A DNA stretch of 64,000 nt from an uncultured Clostridia bacterium (GCA_947588355.1 CANPYI010000004.1:1244-65243), one strand, 5' to 3'; numbered from the stretch's first letter, positions 10,419-61,107 are shown. The notes: a model not told the origin generated them from the letters alone. Translations and numbers: made by a program.

Positions 10419-10928
10419 TCATTTTTTTTCATCTTTTGATTTGCCTTTATTCTTAAAGAAATAGATTGAAAGATAAACAACAAACAACACTACTCCGATT
10501 GTCAACGCAACATCTGCAAAATTGAAAATAGGAAAACTAGGCCAAAAAGCAAACTGAACAAAATCTCTGACATATCCAAGAAAAATTCTGTCATAAAGGT
10601 TGCCCAAACATCCGCCAATCAAAAAACCAAAAGTTATATTAAGTAGCCAAGTTTTGTTTTTTTCTTTTATATAATAGAAAATAAAAATAGCCAAAAAAAC
10701 GAAAGAAAGTGCAATCAAAAACAACTGTTTTCCTTGCAAAATCCCCCATGCAGCGCCCATATTTTTCACAAATTTAAAACTGAACAAATATGGAATGACA
10801 GTAAGCACATCGCCACTTTCAAGTCTTGCTTCAAAAACATATTTTGTCACCAAGTCCAATACCAAAATGGCAACAATAATTGCCAGCATAACAGAAAATC
10901 TTATCCAAAATTGCTTTTTCACTTTCAC
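10419..10928 (-). CDS. lspA: lipoprotein signal peptidase II
   Basis: 4-TM protein with VKNMGAAWG and FNFADV motifs. Confidence 0.9.
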   Translation of the reverse strand: MKVKKQFWIRFSVMLAIIVAILVLDLVTKYVFEARLESGDVLTVIPYLFSFKFVKNMGAAWGILQGKQLFLIALSFVFLAIFIFYYIKEKNKTWLLNITFGFLIGGCLGNLYDRIFLGYVRDFVQFAFWPSFPIFNFADVALTIGVVLFVVYLSIYFFKNKGKSKDEKK

Positions 10929-10934
10929 TCCAAA

Positions 10935-11300
10935 TTATTCCCTTTCAAGTTCCATATTTTTCGGTAAAAAGATTATCAAATTTTTGTCAACTTGTTCTTC
11001 CGAGGCGCCCAAAACATCAATCACACCATGAAAATAGTCCAAAATTTTGTTTTTTTCATATCCGCTACATGCCCTAAAATCCACAAAGAAAGGTGTATTT
11101 TTCTTCAATAATTCAATTTTATCCTTTATTTCCTCAAAAGTTTCTGGATAAAAAACTTTAACTCCATCAATTTCATCTGGCAATTTTTGTGAAATTTTAA
11201 GATTGTAAGATGCTTTTGGCGTGGTGTTTTTCTTTTTGACAACTTTCACATCGTCACCCTCAAAGCCAAAAACCCTGTAAATATAGTCCATGAAACTCAT
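10935..11300 (-). CDS. sepF: SepF-like cell division protein (DUF552)
   Basis: 121 aa. N-terminal amphipathic MSFMDYIYRVFGF and a C-terminal SepF-like core (VFYPETFEEIKDKIELLKKNTPFFVDF). Confidence 0.65.
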   Translation of the reverse strand: MSFMDYIYRVFGFEGDDVKVVKKKNTTPKASYNLKISQKLPDEIDGVKVFYPETFEEIKDKIELLKKNTPFFVDFRACSGYEKNKILDYFHGVIDVLGASEEQVDKNLIIFLPKNMELERE

Positions 11301-11447
11301 ATTTCACCTCTTGTATAAAAATATATCACAATTTTCAATAAAAAACAAAATAAAAACTAATACTTAGCAGTTATTTTTATTTTCAACTAAGTCACAGAAT
11401 AATATTTTGTGAGAATAGCGAACTCTTGCGAAATGAAATTGAGCAAC

Positions 11448-11477
11448 AAAAAAAGACTGAAATATCAGTCTTTTTTT
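11448..11477. terminator. intrinsic terminator, repeat unit A
   Basis: A7-agactga-aata-tcagtct-T7. Confidence 0.7.
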
Positions 11478-11592
11478 GTATTATTATTCGATGACAAGAA
11501 GTGCGAGTTTGCTTGCAAGAACAAGCACGACGAAGTCACGGGGAGATAATGCGTGAGCGAACTGCGAACAATTGCGAATGAAAATGAGCAAT

Positions 11593-11619
11593 AAAAAAAG
11601 ACCTTGCGGTCTTTTTTTT
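11593..11619. terminator. intrinsic terminator, repeat unit B
   Basis: A7-gacc-ttgc-ggtc-T8. Confidence 0.7.
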
Positions 11620-11731
11620 GTATTATTGTTCGATGACAAGAAGTGCGATTTTATACATTTATGCACAAGAACGAGCACGACGAAGTCATATATAACAAAA
11701 CTTTCGCGAAGTGAAAATCGCCTTTGGCAAT

Positions 11732-11761
11732 AAAAAAAGATTGCAAACGCAATCTTTTTTT
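11732..11761. terminator. intrinsic terminator directly after tuf, repeat unit C
   Basis: A7-gattgc-aaac-gcaatc-T7, 8 nt from the tuf stop. Confidence 0.8.
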
Positions 11762-11768
11762 AGTTTTG

Positions 11769-12971
11769 TTATTCTATTATTTGAGAAACAACACCAGAGC
11801 CAACTGTTCTGCCACCTTCACGGATAGCGAAACGAAGTCCTTGTTCGATAGCAATCTCTTTTGAAAGTTCGATTGTCATCTTAACATTGTCGCCTGGCAT
11901 AACCATTTCAACGCCTTGTGGAAGTTCGATTGTTCCAGTAACGTCAGTTGTACGGAAATAGAATTGTGGACGATATCCATTGAAGAATGGTGTGTGACGT
12001 CCACCTTCTTCCTTCTTCAAAACGTAAACTTCGGCAGCAAATTTTGTATGTGGGTGAATTGAACCTGGTTTGCAAAGAACTTGTCCTCTTTCGATTTCAT
12101 TTCTTTGAATACCACGAAGAAGAATGCCGACATTGTATCCTGCGATACCTTCATCAACAGTCTTTCTGAACATTTCAACACCAGTAACAACTGTTTGTTT
12201 CTTTGCGCCCATACCAACGATTTCAACAACGTCGTTGATCTTAACTTTTCCTCTTTCGATTCTTCCTGTTGCAACAGTTCCACGTCCTGTAATTGTGAAG
12301 ACGTCTTCAACTGGCATCAAGAAAGGTTTGTCAGTGTCACGAACTGGGTCTGGGATATAAGAATCAAGAGCATCAAGAAGTTGTTCGATGCATGTGCAAG
12401 CAGGGTCATTGATATTTCCAGCTTGAGCGGCTTCCAAAGCCTTCAAAGCAGAGCCTTTGATGATTGGAGTTTTGTCTCCTGGGAATCCATATTCTGTCAA
12501 AAGGTCACGGATTTCCATTTCAACAAGGTCAAGAAGTTCTGGATCATCAACTTGATCAGTTTTGTTCATGAAAACAACGATATAAGGAACGCCAACCTGT
12601 CTTGCAAGCAAGATGTGTTCACGTGTCTGAGGCATTGGACCATCAGTTGCAGCAACAACAAGGATTGCTCCGTCCATCTGAGCGGCACCAGTGATCATGT
12701 TTTTAACATAGTCAGCGTGTCCCGGGCAGTCAACGTGTGCATAGTGACGTTTGTCTGTTTGATACTCAACGTGTGCAGTGTTGATTGTGATTCCGCGCGC
12801 TTTTTCCTCTGGCGCTTTATCGATTTCGTCATATCTCATTTTTTGAGCATAACCCTTTGCAGCCTGATACATTGTGATGGCAGCAGTAAGGGTTGTTTTA
12901 CCATGGTCAACGTGTCCGATTGTTCCTACATTGACATGGAGTTTGGTGTTATCATATTTTCCAACAGCCAT
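11769..12971 (-). CDS. tuf: elongation factor Tu
   Basis: 400 aa with [17 protein letters not shown] and NKTD motifs. Confidence 0.98.
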
Positions 12972-15133: not shown

Positions 15134-15225
15134 AATATCTTTTTCCTTTTAATAAATTTGTCTATTTTTTAAGGAAATAAACATAAAAAACCTTGGTTAT
15201 TTCCAATTAAAATACTCAAGTAAAG

Positions 15226-15251
15226 TTTTGCAAGGCGAAAAGGAGTTTGTG
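15226..15251. repeat. 26-nt direct repeat, copy 1 (ttttgcaaggcgaaaaggagtttgtg)
   Basis: 25/26 identical to 15460-15485, 234 nt away. Confidence 0.8.
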
Positions 15252-15459
15252 ACATATTTTTGCTCTCAACGCCCCACTTCGCAAGAGGAGTCGCCGCAAA
15301 ACCGCCAATGAAATGCGGTTTTCGTTTGGCGGCGAAGTGGTGAGGCAAGCGTCAAGGCGATGCTTTTGTAATCCTCTTCAAAATTTTAATAGTGAAAGGA
15401 CTTTGTCCGCTCTTTAAAATTTTGAAGCCCTTTGGCCGCCAGCAAAATGTCCAGCGGAA

Positions 15460-15485
15460 TTTTGCAAGGCGAAAAGGGGTTTGTG
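15460..15485. repeat. 26-nt direct repeat, copy 2 (ttttgcaaggcgaaaaggggtttgtg)
   Basis: 25/26 identical to 15226-15251. Confidence 0.8.
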
Positions 15486-15556
15486 GGGAAAACGAATTTT
15501 AGGCGTTAGGAAAACCCTGTTTTCCGTGTCGCCGTTAAGAAATTCTAGTTGTCCCC
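15485..15556. ncRNA. conserved multi-stem hairpin motif, copy 1 (candidate structured RNA or REP-like element)
   Basis: Identical blocks TTTTAGGCGTTAGG (15497-15510) and CCGTGTCGCCGT (15524-15535) flank an inner stem ggaaaac/gttttcc. Outer pairings gaattt/aaattc and gggga/tcccc. Ends 5 nt from the rpsG stop. A second copy is at 54528-54614. Confidence 0.4.
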
Positions 15557-15562
15557 GCACGC

Positions 15563-29426: not shown

Positions 29427-30367
29427 ATGAGAAAGAAAATGTTGTACATATCAATTATATCTTTTACAGTATTGTGTCTTTTGTTTGAATTTTTAAAGTT
29501 TTTCACTGACTTCAATTTTTTGTACGTAAGTTTGGCGTTTGAACTTTTTTTGGCACTTTTTCTTTGTTCACTGTTATTTCACAAAAAAACAATTTGTGTA
29601 GGCTGCATTTCTTTGCTTTTAAGCACACTTTTCATCACCCCAAACTGTATAACAATTGGATACAACGATCCCACCGCCTCTCAAACCATTATACATGCGG
29701 GGGGGGGAATTTCAACCTCTCATACTTAAATTGCCAAGAAATCTTTGATGAGGCACTCGATAAAGGGCAAAATCTTATTGAAATCGATTTTTTGCTAAGT
29801 AAAGACGAAAAGGTGATATGCTCGCATCAACTTGAATACATACAAGGATACAGTTTAAATAATCGCCCAACATACCAACAATTCAACTCTTCAATTTTGC
29901 TTGATAAATATCACCCTTTGACTCTGGAGCATATTTTTGAGCAACTGAAAAGCCACAAAAACGCAAAAATAATTTTTGATAGCAAAGAGAATGATAAAAC
30001 AAAAATACTCAGTAAAATTGTTGAAAATGCCAAAAATAACAATTTTGATATTTTTGACAAAATGATTGTCCAAATATATAGCGAGAAAAATTATCAAAAC
30101 ATAAAATCTGATGTCAATTTGTCGCAATTTAAAGAATTTTGGTACACCAATTATGTTTCAAATTTGCTTCCCTCAACTATAAATGCTATATTTGCTGACA
30201 AAAAAGACGTAAGCACTTATGTAATGAACAAACAATTTTGGCTATTTTTCACGCAATTAGGCATGAAAACAAACAAACACATCGCAGTGCATACAATAAA
30301 TGACATGGAAAGTGTGAAATTTTTAGAACAAAAAGGTGTAGACTTAATTTTCAAAGATTATTTTTAA
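29427..30367 (+). pseudogene. membrane-anchored glycerophosphodiester phosphodiesterase family protein, frameshifted at a G9 tract (phase-variable candidate)
   Basis: Frame 1 (MRKKMLYIS..., 3-4 TM) ends IIHAGGG then ISTSHT*. The frame of ORF 29564..30367 continues NFNLSYLNCQEIFDEALDKGQNLIEIDF... (GDPD-like H-x-G-G ... IE-x-D). Ten or seven G would fuse them into one 313- or 312-aa protein. Confidence 0.75.
29699..29707 (+). repeat. homopolymeric G9 tract inside a coding sequence
   Basis: gcGGGGGGGGGaattt read directly from the sequence. Confidence 0.95.
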
Positions 30368-30394
30368 AAAAAAGAGGCAAAAGCCTCTTTTTTG
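30366..30394. terminator. bidirectional terminator between the GDPD gene and rpsI
   Basis: A8-agaggc-aaaa-gcctct-T6. Confidence 0.8.
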
Positions 30395-33615: not shown

Positions 33616-33651
33616 AAAAAAAACTTGTCAGGTTTTGACAAGTTTTTTTTT
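33616..33651 (+). terminator. intrinsic terminator after tRNA-Arg
   Basis: A8-cttgtca-ggtt-tgacaag-T9. Confidence 0.85.
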
Positions 33652-36662: not shown

Positions 36663-37490
36663 ATGATTTCAATTTGTTACAGCGGAAACAGAGCAATCTT
36701 TGAAGGTTTGCTGATGTCGGTTATGTCGGTGGCAAAACAAACAAAGGACTCTGTGAGTATCTATGTGCTTACAATGGATTTGCATGATGAAAATCCAAAA
36801 TTCTTGCCTTTCAGCGACCAACAAATCGCACTTCTTGACGATATAGTCAAACAAAAAAACAAGGAAAGTAAAGTTGTGAAATGTGACGTGACACAACTTT
36901 ACAAAACACACCTTATTGGTGGCAAAAATCACGAAAGTGGCTACACGCCGTACTCCTTGCTTCGACTTTTGATGGACTTGGTGCCAGAAATTCCTGACAA
37001 GATTATTTATTTGGATATCGACACAATGTGCTGCTCGGATCTTAAAGATTTTTGGGACATAGATGTTGAAAATGTTGATATGGCGGCTTGCAAAGACTAT
37101 ATGGGCAGATTTTGGATAAGAACGTCATATGTCAATTCCGGAAGCATTTTGATGAACATGAAAAAAATCAAAGAAGACAATCTTTTGGAAAAATGCCGTA
37201 AAAAAGTTTACAAAAACTTTATGTTGATGCCAGACCAAACCGCATTAAACAAGTATGCAAAAATAAAACATATTCCTTTCCGTTTCAACGAACAGCGAAA
37301 GATAAAATCCGACACGGTTGTAAAACACTTTTGCAAAGGTGTTGTGTTTTTCTTGCCTTTTGGCCTACATGTTTACAACATAAAACAATGGCAAAGAGAA
37401 AAAGTTCACAAAAGTTTGAAAATCTTTGTGTTTGATGACATCTATCAGCAAGTGGACAAACTGAAAGAAAGCAGGCCAGAATGTTTTTAA
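36663..37490 (+). CDS. glycosyltransferase family 8
   Basis: Internal start MISICYSGN behind GGAGAA. GT8 features include the DxD motif (YLDIDTMC) and PDQTALN. Confidence 0.8.
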   Translation: MISICYSGNRAIFEGLLMSVMSVAKQTKDSVSIYVLTMDLHDENPKFLPFSDQQIALLDDIVKQKNKESKVVKCDVTQLYKTHLIGGKNHESGYTPYSLLRLLMDLVPEIPDKIIYLDIDTMCCSDLKDFWDIDVENVDMAACKDYMGRFWIRTSYVNSGSILMNMKKIKEDNLLEKCRKKVYKNFMLMPDQTALNKYAKIKHIPFRFNEQRKIKSDTVVKHFCKGVVFFLPFGLHVYNIKQWQREKVHKSLKIFVFDDIYQQVDKLKESRPECF

Positions 37491-37518
37491 AAAAAAACAC
37501 GAAAATATCGTGTTTTTT
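37489..37518. terminator. bidirectional terminator
   Basis: A9-acacga-aaata-tcgtgt-T6. Confidence 0.75.
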
Positions 37519-45693: not shown

Positions 45694-45724
45694 AAAAAAA
45701 TAGAGGTTCTTCCTCTATTTTTTC
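45694..45724. terminator. bidirectional terminator between nrdR and ylmC
   Basis: A7-tagagg-ttctt-cctcta-T6. Confidence 0.7.
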
Positions 45725-54228: not shown

Positions 54229-54432
54229 ATGAACAAATTTGCACAAAGATTGAAAGAACTTCGCCTTGAAGAAAATTTAAGCCAAACAGAACTTGCAAAA
54301 AGAACAGGCTTGACACAAACGGCGATAGGAAAATGGGAACAAAACAAACGCACCCCTTCAATTGAAGTGCTTTATGTTTTGTGTCGATACTTCCATGTCT
54401 CCGCCGACTATCTTATAGGTCTGGAAGACTAA
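54229..54432 (+). CDS. XRE family HTH regulator (tandem copy 2)
   Basis: MNKFAQRLKELRLEENLSQTELAKRTGLTQTAIGKWEQNKRTP...DYLIGLED; starts 1 nt after copy 1. Confidence 0.85.
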   Translation: MNKFAQRLKELRLEENLSQTELAKRTGLTQTAIGKWEQNKRTPSIEVLYVLCRYFHVSADYLIGLED

Positions 54433-54456
54433 AAAAAGAGCATGATGCTCTTTTTA
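54431..54456 (+). terminator. intrinsic terminator after the XRE pair
   Basis: A7-gagca-tga-tgctc-T5. Confidence 0.75.
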
Positions 54457-61074: not shown

Positions 61075-61107
61075 ATAAAAAAATAGGCATTTTTGCCTAT
61101 TTTTTTA
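61075..61107. terminator. bidirectional terminator between spoVG and ypeB
   Basis: A7-taggca-tttt-tgccta-T7. Confidence 0.8.

What the first reader, a model, noticed from the sequence alone, without database searches (positions are those of the whole stretch)
11405..11768. Tandem ~140-bp repeat downstream of tuf, each unit carrying its own bidirectional intrinsic terminator
Three strong A-run/hairpin/T-run terminators (11448-11477, 11593-11619, 11732-11761) are spaced 145 and 139 nt apart.

The sequence between them is repeated:
- gtattattRttcgatgacaagaagtgcga ... gcacgacgaagtca
- ttgcgaaRtgaaaWtgagcaaY-A7

The hairpin stems themselves differ (agactga / gacc / gattgc) while the flanks are conserved. 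The units have therefore diverged under a constraint to keep a terminator.

The segment gcgaactcttgcgaaatgaaattgagcaacaaaaa (11418-) also resembles the reverse complement of 15258-15295 in the rpsG-fusA spacer (ggcgactcctcttgcgaagtggggcgttgagagcaaaa). This suggests one dispersed element family present in both orientations.

Possible roles are a triple fail-safe terminator after a very strong operon, a pair of small terminator-bounded transcription units (sRNAs) on either strand, or decayed copies of a mobile miniature element. ORF 11484..11678 reads across the repeats and is not credible.
Basis: seen in the sequence. Interest (0 to 1): 0.55.

Follow-up and report, generated by a model that had tools for sequence, protein, structure and literature searches.

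The report
Stacked tuf terminator modules before sepF
The spacer after the elongation-factor gene tuf holds three diverged tandem copies of one module (a decayed tuf end, a transcription terminator and a short spacer); it is confined to this locus, which varies between related bacteria, and is an ordinary though tidy case, not a mobile element or small-RNA gene.

Summary
The core observation holds. Three perfect A7-hairpin-T7 terminators (11448-11477, 11593-11619, 11732-11761) lie 145 and 139 nt apart in the 468-nt tuf-sepF spacer. Repeated flanks of 36, 23 and 26 nt are 92-97% identical. The claimed link to 15258-15295 is only a 13-nt match at chance level.

No other copy exists in the window. 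The conserved blocks have no real match in the genome, metagenome or viral collections, so this is not a dispersed element. No Rfam family, convincing promoter, Shine-Dalgarno site or frame-consistent ORF supports small RNAs or peptides.

Relatives (uncultured Clostridia, Caccovivens-like) explain the array. Their tuf-sepF interval carries variable cargo, often a convergent M18 peptidase gene that is absent here. Window T3-Y-X-T2 is colinear with a relative's two-terminator spacer. Hairpins T1 and T3 nearly match single terminators of different relatives. Block X looks like a decayed tuf 3' end.

One relative has a 47-nt tuf-end direct repeat flanking a 1.3-kb insertion. A same-species contig is 100% identical until 22 nt before the tuf stop, then switches allele.

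Best reading: stacked tuf-end/terminator modules at a recombination-prone border, probably acting as tandem terminators that shield sepF. Termination itself is untested. Low-to-moderate interest.

The parts
11769..11790 (-). Last 22 nt of tuf (…GVVSQIIE*). This is the left border of the variable region.
   Evidence: Same-species contig L023 is 100% identical to the window for 2183 nt and diverges abruptly from this point, with 4 synonymous changes followed by another terminator and spacer allele. In relative L024 a 47-nt copy of this tuf end flanks a 1331-nt insertion.
11732..11761 (.). T3, the terminator next to tuf: A7-GATTGC-AAAC-GCAATC-T7, symmetric.
   Evidence: (-14.9 kcal/mol on the tuf strand, z = -5.65). 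Same stem as the displaced terminator of L024.
11689..11731 (-). Y_C, the spacer segment after T3.
   Evidence: Colinear with and similar to L024 5069-5130. Aligns with the L019 spacer, with which it shares a 9-column gap relative to Y_A and Y_B.
11620..11688 (-). X_C, a relatively G+C-rich block holding both conserved sub-blocks (11620-11648 and 11666-11688). It looks like a decayed tuf 3' end, ending in …GTCATCGAACAATAA on the minus strand.
   Evidence: Global alignment to the last 77 nt of tuf was equalled by 154 of 5000 shuffles. Shares CTTCTTGTCATCGAA with L024 5153-5167.
11593..11619 (.). T2, the middle terminator: A7-GACC-TTGC-GGTC-T8.
   Evidence: (-12.6 kcal/mol, z = -5.2). It occupies the position of the second terminator, T(b), of the L024 tuf/M18 spacer.
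11539..11592 (-). Y_B, the spacer segment after T2.
   Evidence: Paralogous to Y_A; together with the adjoining A-run, 11432-11457 = 11577-11602 at 92%.
11478..11538 (-). X_B, the second copy of the tuf-end-like block, ending in …GTCATCGAATAA TAATAC on the minus strand.
   Evidence: 36-nt and 23-nt blocks are 96-97% identical to X_C. Global alignment to the last 77 nt of tuf was equalled by 17 of 5000 shuffles, and no other of 376 sampled tuf windows scored as high. Its end plus T1 is 84% identical over 58 nt to the L023 tuf end plus terminator.
11448..11477 (.). T1, the terminator farthest from tuf: A7-GACTGA-AATA-TCAGTC-T7.
   Evidence: (-18.6 kcal/mol, z = -7.2). One loop mismatch from the only tuf terminator of L019.
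11389..11447 (-). Y_A, the last and partial unit. Unit homology ends at …GTGACTT.
   Evidence: (family D5).
11301..11388 (-). Unduplicated AT-rich remainder with the probable sepF promoter (extended -10 TGTGATATATT, + strand 11320-11330) and the sepF ribosome-binding site.
   Evidence: Together with the promoter-proximal part of Y_A it is orthologous to the L019 post-terminator spacer (z = 5.3, 0 of 1000 shuffles) and to the sepF-proximal region of L019 and L020. The promoter assignment is read from the sequence and was not reported by the consensus scan.

Best explanation
**What it is.** The 468-nt tuf-sepF spacer is a locus-bound stack of three paralogous modules. Read in the direction of tuf transcription (minus strand), each module is a decayed copy of the last few dozen bases of tuf (block X), then a symmetric A7-hairpin-T7 intrinsic terminator, then about 45-60 nt of downstream spacer (Y) ending at GTGACTT.

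**How it arose (inferred).**
- The stack sits at a recombination-prone border. In related uncultured Clostridia the interval between tuf and sepF carries varying cargo, most often a convergent M18 aminopeptidase gene.
- In this genome the cargo is absent and only the stacked modules remain.
- The first two terminators with the Y and X between them (T3-Y_C-X_C-T2) correspond to the two-terminator spacer that separates convergent tuf and M18 in a relative.
- The third module (…X_B-T1-Y_A) resembles the tuf-downstream module of another lineage. It was added by duplication or by recombination at the tuf 3' end.

**How it probably works (inferred, not shown).** T3 ends the rpsL-rpsG-fusA-tuf transcript. 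T2 and T1 catch read-through. The sepF-lspA-rluD operon, whose own promoter lies about 120 nt beyond T1, is thereby insulated from one of the most strongly transcribed operons now that no convergent gene lies between them. Blocks X and Y have no demonstrated function.
For: **Structure**
- Three perfect hairpins with repeated flanks.
- Units align with each other and with the L019 tuf-end/terminator/spacer.

**Locus-bound**
- No other copy in 64 kb.
- One conserved block has one chance hit each in the genome and viral collections and none in metagenomes; the other block has none in metagenomes.

**Real, not an assembly artefact**
- The identical 468-nt spacer occurs in two independent assemblies, and partly in two more.

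**Variable interval in relatives**
- tuf-M18(-)-sepF in L007. M18 directly upstream of sepF in L005, L012 and L019.
- tuf-AP_endonuc_2-M18 in L024-L026. tuf-190 nt-sepF in L027 (L029 appears the same). tuf plus three small genes then sepF in L028 and L031.
- M18 is absent from the window.

**Colinearity**
- Window tuf-end-T3-Y_C-X_C-T2 aligns with L024 4985-5240 (fossil tuf end-T-Y-X'-T(b)) at 80% column identity. BLAST gives 72% over 165 nt, E 3.6e-19.
- The promoter-proximal part of window Y_A plus the stretch beyond it aligns with the L019 post-terminator spacer at z = 5.3.

**Hairpin kinds recur in relatives**
- T1 matches L019 and L010, and T3 matches the L024 fossil, far better than they match each other.

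**X is tuf-end-like**
- Global alignment to the last 77 nt of tuf gives p about 0.003 for X_B and 0.03 for X_C, and no other sampled tuf window scored as high for X_B.
- The multi-locus alignment puts X-T modules in register with tuf-end-T modules.

**Recombination at the tuf 3' end**
- A 47-nt direct repeat of the tuf end (89% identical) flanks a 1331-nt insertion in L024.
- L023 is 100% identical to the window for 2183 nt and then switches allele 22 nt before the end of tuf.

**Terminator style**
- Symmetric A-run/T-run hairpins recur in this window; six more lie elsewhere in it.
Against: - No transcript data, so termination at any of the three sites and the insulation of sepF are inferred only.
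- The stems are short and G+C-poor, with 4-6 pairs between the A and T runs, so their efficiency is unknown.
- The similarity of X to the tuf 3' end is modest (p 0.003 and 0.03). A local-alignment test was not significant (72 of 1000 shuffles).
- Similarity between the units is patchy. X_B and X_C are 96-97% identical in two blocks, whereas the hairpins and parts of Y are far more diverged. I attribute this to mosaic unequal crossing-over or gene conversion, but selection on the X blocks for an unknown function is not excluded.
- The match of T2 to a relative's terminator is weak.
- L023 is a 2.3-kb contig at about 2.7x coverage that ends 98 nt after tuf. Its module number is unknown and a chimeric assembly cannot be ruled out.
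- Only 64 kb of this genome could be searched for further copies.
- The order of events (duplication, import of an allele, loss of M18) cannot be resolved.
Confidence: 0.62

Rival explanations
1. A simple, recent tandem duplication within this species. Unequal crossing-over or replication slippage between the short repeat GACTTCGT inside tuf and GACTT(T/A)GT in the spacer produced the copies. Neutral decay followed, and the hairpins stayed perfect through quasi-palindrome template switching rather than through selection. The extra copies have no function.
For: - Head-to-tail arrangement with a period of 139-150 nt.
- GACTTCGT occurs in tuf 66-73 nt before the stop, and GACTT(C/A/T)GT marks the end of every Y segment, including the one in L019.
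- X_B and X_C are nearly identical in two blocks.
- The array is unique to this species among all sequences retrieved.
Against: - T1 and T3 each nearly match a terminator of a different relative and are much less like each other.
- T3-Y_C-X_C-T2 is colinear with a two-terminator spacer already present in L024, so at least two modules predate this species.
- Divergence between units is strongly non-uniform.
Confidence: 0.22
2. The units are small genes: terminator-bounded sRNAs on either strand, or a type I toxin-antitoxin-like pair with small peptides. The + strand peptides would be MKLSNKKRLKYQSFFVLLFDDKKCEFACKNKHDEVTGR (11430-11549) and its paralogue at 11578-11733. The shared bidirectional terminators would end convergent transcripts.
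For: - On the + strand, ATG-initiated reading frames run through T1 and T2. The 3-nt length difference between T1 and T2 keeps the frame (read from the sequence; ORFs listed).
- The two X blocks can form UGAC/GUCA and GUGC/GCAC stems around a variable apical hairpin in both units.
- Unit B on the + strand folds better than shuffles (z = -3.1).
Against: - No Shine-Dalgarno site lies before any ORF (best 4 of 6, for a 13-aa ORF), whereas real genes here have AGGAG or AGAGGTG.
- The two conserved blocks are out of frame with each other between units because of an 8-nt indel, on both strands.
- The peptides are charged rather than hydrophobic.
- No protein homologues for the minus-strand frame.
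- No Rfam family at gathering score or with E below 0.3.
- The only promoter-like hit inside the units is a 9-of-12 match at chance frequency.
- Three of the four inter-terminator segments fold like shuffles.
Confidence: 0.06
3. Decayed copies of a dispersed miniature mobile element (MITE- or REP-like), also present in the opposite orientation in the rpsG-fusA spacer.
For: - Palindromic cores with conserved flanks.
- A 13-nt match to the rpsG-fusA spacer.
Against: - No other copy in the window.
- No match to either conserved block in the metagenome collection; the block also searched in species-representative genomes and viral contigs gave one chance hit in each.
- The 13-nt match is at chance level (92 of 2000 shuffles).
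- The units are orthologous to the tuf-downstream spacer of relatives at the same locus.
Confidence: 0.03
4. Tandem transcription attenuators or riboswitch-like leaders that control read-through from tuf into sepF.
For: On the minus strand each unit ends in a terminator upstream of sepF, like tandem leader-terminator units.
Against: - No Rfam family.
- No conserved alternative (antiterminator) pairing was found between units.
- A sepF-proximal promoter region conserved with relatives lies downstream of T1, so sepF does not depend on read-through.
- Relatives have a convergent gene in this position instead.
Confidence: 0.03

Closest known systems
Tandem (back-to-back) intrinsic terminators after highly expressed operons, for example rrnB T1-T2 of E. 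coli (own knowledge)
   Same: Several Rho-independent terminators in series downstream of a very strongly transcribed operon. The expected effect is cumulative termination.
   Different: Here the terminators belong to homologous ~142-nt modules that also carry decayed gene-end sequence. Their activity is untested.
Bidirectional intrinsic terminators between convergent genes (own knowledge)
   Same: A perfect A-run/hairpin/T-run symmetry, so the site can terminate from either side. In relatives the homologous sites lie between convergent tuf and M18.
   Different: In this genome no convergent gene remains, so the second direction has no obvious client.
Direct repeats of a gene's 3' end left by integration of genomic islands or integrative elements into the 3' end of a conserved gene (attL/attR; tRNA genes and housekeeping genes; own knowledge)
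   Same: Relative L024 has a 47-nt direct repeat of the tuf end flanking a 1.3-kb insertion. The window's X blocks look like older copies of the tuf end, each with its own terminator. Allele switching starts inside the last 22 nt of tuf.
   Different: No integrase or other mobility gene was seen in any of the retrieved intervals. The repeats in the window are decayed, and no cargo lies between them.
Dispersed intergenic palindromic repeats (REP/BIME in enterobacteria; BOX and RUP in Streptococcus pneumoniae; Correia elements in Neisseria; own knowledge)
   Same: Short intergenic repeats containing hairpins, some of which affect termination or mRNA stability.
   Different: Those families are present in many dispersed copies per genome. 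This one is confined to a single locus.

Membership tests
Rho-independent (intrinsic) terminator | Stem-loop immediately followed by a run of at least 5 U | tested here: met
   All three sites have perfect stems followed by T7-T8, and A7 on the other side. Folding energies are -12.5 to -18.6 kcal/mol with z = -3.9 to -7.2.
Rho-independent (intrinsic) terminator | Position just downstream of a stop codon or operon end | tested here: met
   T3 begins 8 nt after the tuf stop codon. T2 and T1 lie 139 and 284 nt further downstream.
Rho-independent (intrinsic) terminator | Transcript 3' ends map to the U-tract | not testable with these tools
   No RNA-seq or Term-seq data are available.
Dispersed miniature repeat or mobile element (MITE/REP-like) | Multiple copies at unrelated loci | tested here: not met
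   No further copy in 64 kb. The 20-mer has one chance hit each in species-representative genomes and viral contigs and none in metagenomes; the 23-mer, searched in metagenomes only, has none. Limit: the rest of this genome could not be searched.
Dispersed miniature repeat or mobile element (MITE/REP-like) | Terminal inverted repeats and target-site duplication bounding each unit | tested here: not met
   The only inverted repeats are the terminator hairpins themselves. Units abut head to tail without bounding inverted repeats.
Small regulatory RNA gene | Own promoter plus terminator | tested here: inconclusive
   Terminators are present. The only promoter-like match inside the units is 9 of 12 (CTGAAA-16-TATTAT at 11457-11484), in a region where the number of hits equals the chance expectation.
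Small regulatory RNA gene | Match to a described family, or a stable conserved fold | tested here: not met
   No Rfam hit at gathering score, and the best E-value is 0.36. Inter-terminator segments give z = -3.1, 0.1, -1.0 and -1.0.
Type I toxin-antitoxin or small-peptide gene | Translatable small ORF (ribosome-binding site, frame conserved between copies, hydrophobic peptide) | tested here: not met
   No Shine-Dalgarno site. An 8-nt indel puts the two conserved blocks out of frame between copies. The peptides are charged. No homologues for the minus-strand frame.
att-type scar of integration into a gene's 3' end | Direct repeat of the gene's 3' end flanking inserted DNA | tested here: inconclusive
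   Met in relative L024 (47 nt, 89% identical, flanking 1331 nt). In the window the X blocks resemble the tuf end only modestly (17 of 5000 and 154 of 5000 shuffles), and no cargo lies between them.
att-type scar of integration into a gene's 3' end | Associated integrase or recombinase | tested here: not met
   The precomputed Pfam labels of the called genes in the tuf-sepF intervals of the retrieved loci show no integrase or recombinase. They show M18 peptidase, AP_endonuc_2, or small genes without domains; L010 (whose upstream gene was not identified as tuf) shows Flavin_Reduct and YjbR. No dedicated search was made.

The most novel reading that the evidence does not exclude
The last ~20-50 nt of tuf act as a specific recombination or integration site in this clade of uncultured gut Clostridia. 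Each event brings in a replacement tuf end with its own terminator and pushes the old one downstream. The three modules in the window would then be a stack of successive att-like scars left after the cargo was lost. In that case the different hairpins are imported alleles, not the products of divergence in place.
Probability: 0.25. Interest if true: 0.45.

Novelty: new member of a known kind. Interest (0 to 1): 0.25.

Why it matters
The array gives a concrete example of how an intergenic region downstream of a core, highly expressed gene is built up: by stacking old gene ends and terminators at a variable-gene border.

It shows that apparent compensatory evolution of terminator stems can instead reflect hairpin kinds that also occur in other lineages.

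It flags the tuf-sepF interval as a strain-variable spot in a poorly known group of gut Clostridia.

In practice such repeats break short-read assemblies; three of the retrieved contigs end inside the array and a fourth ends just after tuf. Gene callers also mistake them for ORFs.

None of this changes what is known about termination, and no new type of element is involved.

Tried and rejected
- **Tandem Repeats Finder** on 10500-12500 found nothing relevant.
- **Rfam**, in permissive mode on the region and at gathering score on the whole window, gave only chance-level hits and one tRNA elsewhere.
- **Remnant of the M18 peptidase gene?** tblastn of three M18 proteins against the spacer gave nothing better than E about 0.4 in a 700-nt database. 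M18 is also absent from the whole window.
- **Coding on either strand?** The + strand frames through the hairpins looked tempting. They fail on the ribosome-binding site and on frame consistency between copies.
- **Protein search with the 91-aa minus-strand frame** gave no hits.
- **Exact-pattern scans.**
  - The 20-mer hit one Chloroflexota contig in the genome collection.
  - The 20-mer hit one high-GC phage terminase gene in IMG/VR, where it encodes FDDKKCE.
  - I judged both to be chance matches, given about one expected hit in the genome collection and the unrelated base composition of the phage hit.
  - Neither the 20-mer nor the 23-mer hit anything in metagenome contigs.
- **Similarity to the rpsG-fusA spacer** is not significant on either strand.
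- **Local alignments** were individually not significant for L019's spacer against units C' and B', nor for X_B against the last 150 nt of tuf. Only the anchored global test of X against the tuf end and the L024 and L019 comparisons were.
- **Tandem attenuator reading** was rejected because a conserved sepF-proximal promoter region lies downstream of T1.
- **Literature search** on tandem terminators returned nothing specific to tuf.

Full report
**1. What is in the sequence**

tuf (11769..12971) and a SepF-family gene (10935..11300, PF04472) both lie on the minus strand. They are separated by 468 nt.

The spacer holds three perfect palindromic sites of the form A7-stem-loop-T7/8:
- T1 at 11448-11477, stem GACTGA.
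- T2 at 11593-11619, stem GACC.
- T3 at 11732-11761, stem GATTGC.

They are spaced 145 and 139 nt apart. Each folds far better than shuffles on either strand, at -12.5 to -18.6 kcal/mol with z = -3.9 to -7.2.

The sequence between them is repeated:
- 11471-11506 = 11613-11648 (36 nt, 97%, E 1.7e-12).
- 11516-11538 = 11666-11688 (23 nt, 96%).
- 11432-11457 = 11577-11602 (26 nt, 92%).

Both conserved blocks occur exactly twice in the window, where shuffles give about zero. Tandem Repeats Finder misses the array, because the units differ by indels and are only about two-thirds alike column by column.

Symmetric A-run/T-run hairpins recur in this window. There are nine perfect ones, three of them here.

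The core observation is therefore correct.

The added claim of a related copy in the rpsG-fusA spacer is not. The similarity is a 13-nt match that 92 of 2000 shuffles equal, and BLAST does not report it.

**2. Anatomy in the direction of tuf transcription**

On the minus strand the order is: tuf end, T3, Y_C, X_C, T2, Y_B, X_B, T1, Y_A, then an AT-rich stretch with the sepF ribosome-binding site.
- Y is the 45-60 nt after a terminator. It ends at GTGACTT.
- X is a relatively G+C-rich 60-70 nt that ends in GTCATCGAA(T/CAA)TAA just before the next terminator.

**3. Not a dispersed element, an RNA gene or a coding repeat**

- *Dispersed element.* No other copy exists in the 64-kb window.
  - The 20-mer of one conserved block has a single hit in one genome per species (a Chloroflexota contig) and a single hit in IMG/VR.
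  - The IMG/VR hit is a high-GC phage terminase gene in which the 20-mer encodes FDDKKCE.
  - I judged both to be chance matches.
  - The 20-mer, and a 23-mer of the other block, have no hit in metagenome contigs.
- *RNA family.* Rfam gives nothing.
- *Promoters.* Promoter-like matches are at chance frequency.
- *Fold.* Three of the four segments between terminators fold like shuffles.
- *Coding.*
  - Reading frames run through the hairpins on the + strand and through the units on the minus strand.
  - None has a Shine-Dalgarno site, unlike the real genes nearby.
  - An 8-nt indel puts the two conserved blocks out of frame between copies.
  - The 91-aa minus-strand frame has no homologue.

**4. 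What relatives show**

SepF and EF-Tu homologues place the window among uncultured Clostridia; some sources name a relative Candidatus Caccovivens.

Two independent assemblies carry the whole 468-nt spacer without a single difference, and two more carry part of it. The array is therefore real and stable in those samples.

In related species the tuf-sepF interval is variable:
- tuf, M18 peptidase (convergent), sepF in L007 and L008.
- M18 directly upstream of sepF in L005, L012 and L019; L016-L018 and L021 also have an opposite-strand gene there, but its family was not recorded.
- tuf, AP_endonuc_2, M18 in L024-L026.
- tuf, 190 nt, sepF in L027 (L029 appears the same).
- tuf, three small opposite-strand genes, sepF in L028 and L031.
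- Other genes in L010.

M18 is absent from the window, and the spacer holds no recognisable remnant of it.

**5. Homology of the modules**

- *L019* (SepF 84% identical).
  - It has one tuf terminator whose hairpin differs from window T1 by one loop base.
  - Its following spacer aligns with the promoter-proximal part of window Y_A and the unduplicated stretch beyond it (z = 5.3, 0 of 1000 shuffles).
- *L024* (tuf 90.6% identical in DNA).
  - It has a 1331-nt insertion carrying AP_endonuc_2 just after tuf, flanked by a 47-nt direct repeat of the tuf 3' end at 89% identity.
  - Behind the displaced tuf end come a terminator with the same stem as window T3, a Y segment, an X' segment that shares CTTCTTGTCATCGAA with the window's X blocks, and a second terminator.
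  - This stretch is colinear with window tuf-end-T3-Y_C-X_C-T2 at 80% column identity (BLAST 72% over 165 nt, E 3.6e-19).
- *Hairpins.* T1 and T3 are each much closer to a terminator of a relative than to each other. T1 scores 16 against L019 and L010, T3 scores 16 against the L024 fossil, and T1 scores 7 against T3. T2 scores 8 against L030, which is weak.

The two-terminator module is therefore older than this species. The differences between hairpins need not be the product of divergence in place after a recent duplication.

**6. X looks like an old tuf end**

- Anchored global alignment of X_B to the last 77 nt of tuf is equalled by 17 of 5000 shuffles. For X_C the figure is 154 of 5000. 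No other of the 376 sampled tuf windows scored as high for X_B.
- In a ten-sequence alignment the X-T modules fall in register with the tuf-end-T modules of six loci.
- The end of X_B plus T1 is 84% identical over 58 nt to the tuf end plus terminator of L023.
- This evidence is moderate, not strong. A local-alignment test was not significant.

**7. The tuf 3' end as a border**

L023 is a contig from a sample that also yielded a window-type contig. It is 100% identical to the window over 2183 nt (the end of fusA and nearly all of tuf). It then diverges abruptly 22 nt before the end of the tuf stop codon (window 11790), with four synonymous changes, a different terminator and a different spacer.

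With the 47-nt repeat in L024, this marks the last few dozen bases of tuf as the left edge of a region that is exchanged or rearranged.

Caveats: L023 has low coverage and ends 98 nt after tuf. Its module number is unknown and a chimera cannot be excluded.

**8. Best explanation**

The array is a locus-bound stack of paralogous tuf-end/terminator/spacer modules at a recombination-prone border. Part of it is inherited from the spacer between convergent tuf and M18, one more module was added, and the cargo gene was lost.

The mosaic pattern fits unequal crossing-over or conversion among tandem units:
- X_B is close to X_C.
- Y_B is close to Y_A.
- T1 is of the L019 type.
- T3-T2 is of the L024 type.

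The order of events cannot be resolved.

Functionally, all three hairpins are perfect and of the kind seen elsewhere in the window. The most likely role is tandem termination of the very strongly transcribed rpsL-rpsG-fusA-tuf operon. That would insulate the sepF-lspA-rluD operon, which has its own proximal promoter region conserved with relatives. This functional step is inferred and untested.

**9. Verdict**

This is a real and neatly structured feature, but of a known kind: tandem intrinsic terminators carried on a local repeat. It is neither a mobile element nor an RNA gene.

The most novel reading still open is that the tuf 3' end is a specific integration site and the modules are stacked att-like scars. 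I give that about 0.25 probability. No recombinase was seen in any retrieved interval.

Noticed in passing
window 15134-15562 (rpsG-fusA spacer, minus-strand mRNA): The spacer is unusually long at 429 nt; three relatives have about 200-230 nt. It is richer in G+C (43-46%) than neighbouring spacers. It folds at -128 kcal/mol with z = -5.2 on the mRNA strand. It contains a 26-nt direct repeat, TTTTGCAAGGCGAAAAGG(A/G)GTTTGTG, at 15226 and 15460, and a perfect 14-nt inverted repeat at 15376-89/15414-27. There is no Rfam match at E<=1. It may be an undescribed structured leader or an insertion.
   Followed up: partly
L024 3664-5041 (also L025, L026): A 1331-nt insertion directly after tuf carries an AP_endonuc_2 (PF01261) gene. 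It is flanked by a 47-nt direct repeat of the tuf 3' end (89% identical). Within it, 41-nt direct repeats rich in TTTTGACCAC motifs lie on both sides of the gene. It looks like an integration scar without a recombinase.
   Followed up: partly
L028 2184-4007 and L031 3797-5619: In two relatives the tuf-sepF interval holds three small opposite-strand genes (159/169, 133 and 199 aa) without Pfam domains. Their function is unknown.
   Followed up: no
L001, L002, L023 (contig ends): Three short-read contigs of this species end inside or just before the repeat array. The repeat, or strain heterogeneity at it, seems to break assemblies. In L001 a gene caller called a 75-aa ORF across the repeats.
   Followed up: partly
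L022 326-345 (IMGVR_UViG_3300035696_000044): The 20-mer TTCGATGACAAGAAGTGCGA occurs once in a high-GC phage contig, inside what reads as a terminase gene. There it encodes FDDKKCE, the same residues as the + strand frame of the window's block. I judged it coincidental because of the unrelated base composition and flanks.
   Followed up: yes
window 30366-30393, 33616-33650, 37489-37518, 45694-45723, 54431-54455, 61077-61106: Six further perfect A-run/hairpin/T-run sites. Symmetric, potentially bidirectional terminators recur across this AT-rich window.
   Followed up: partly
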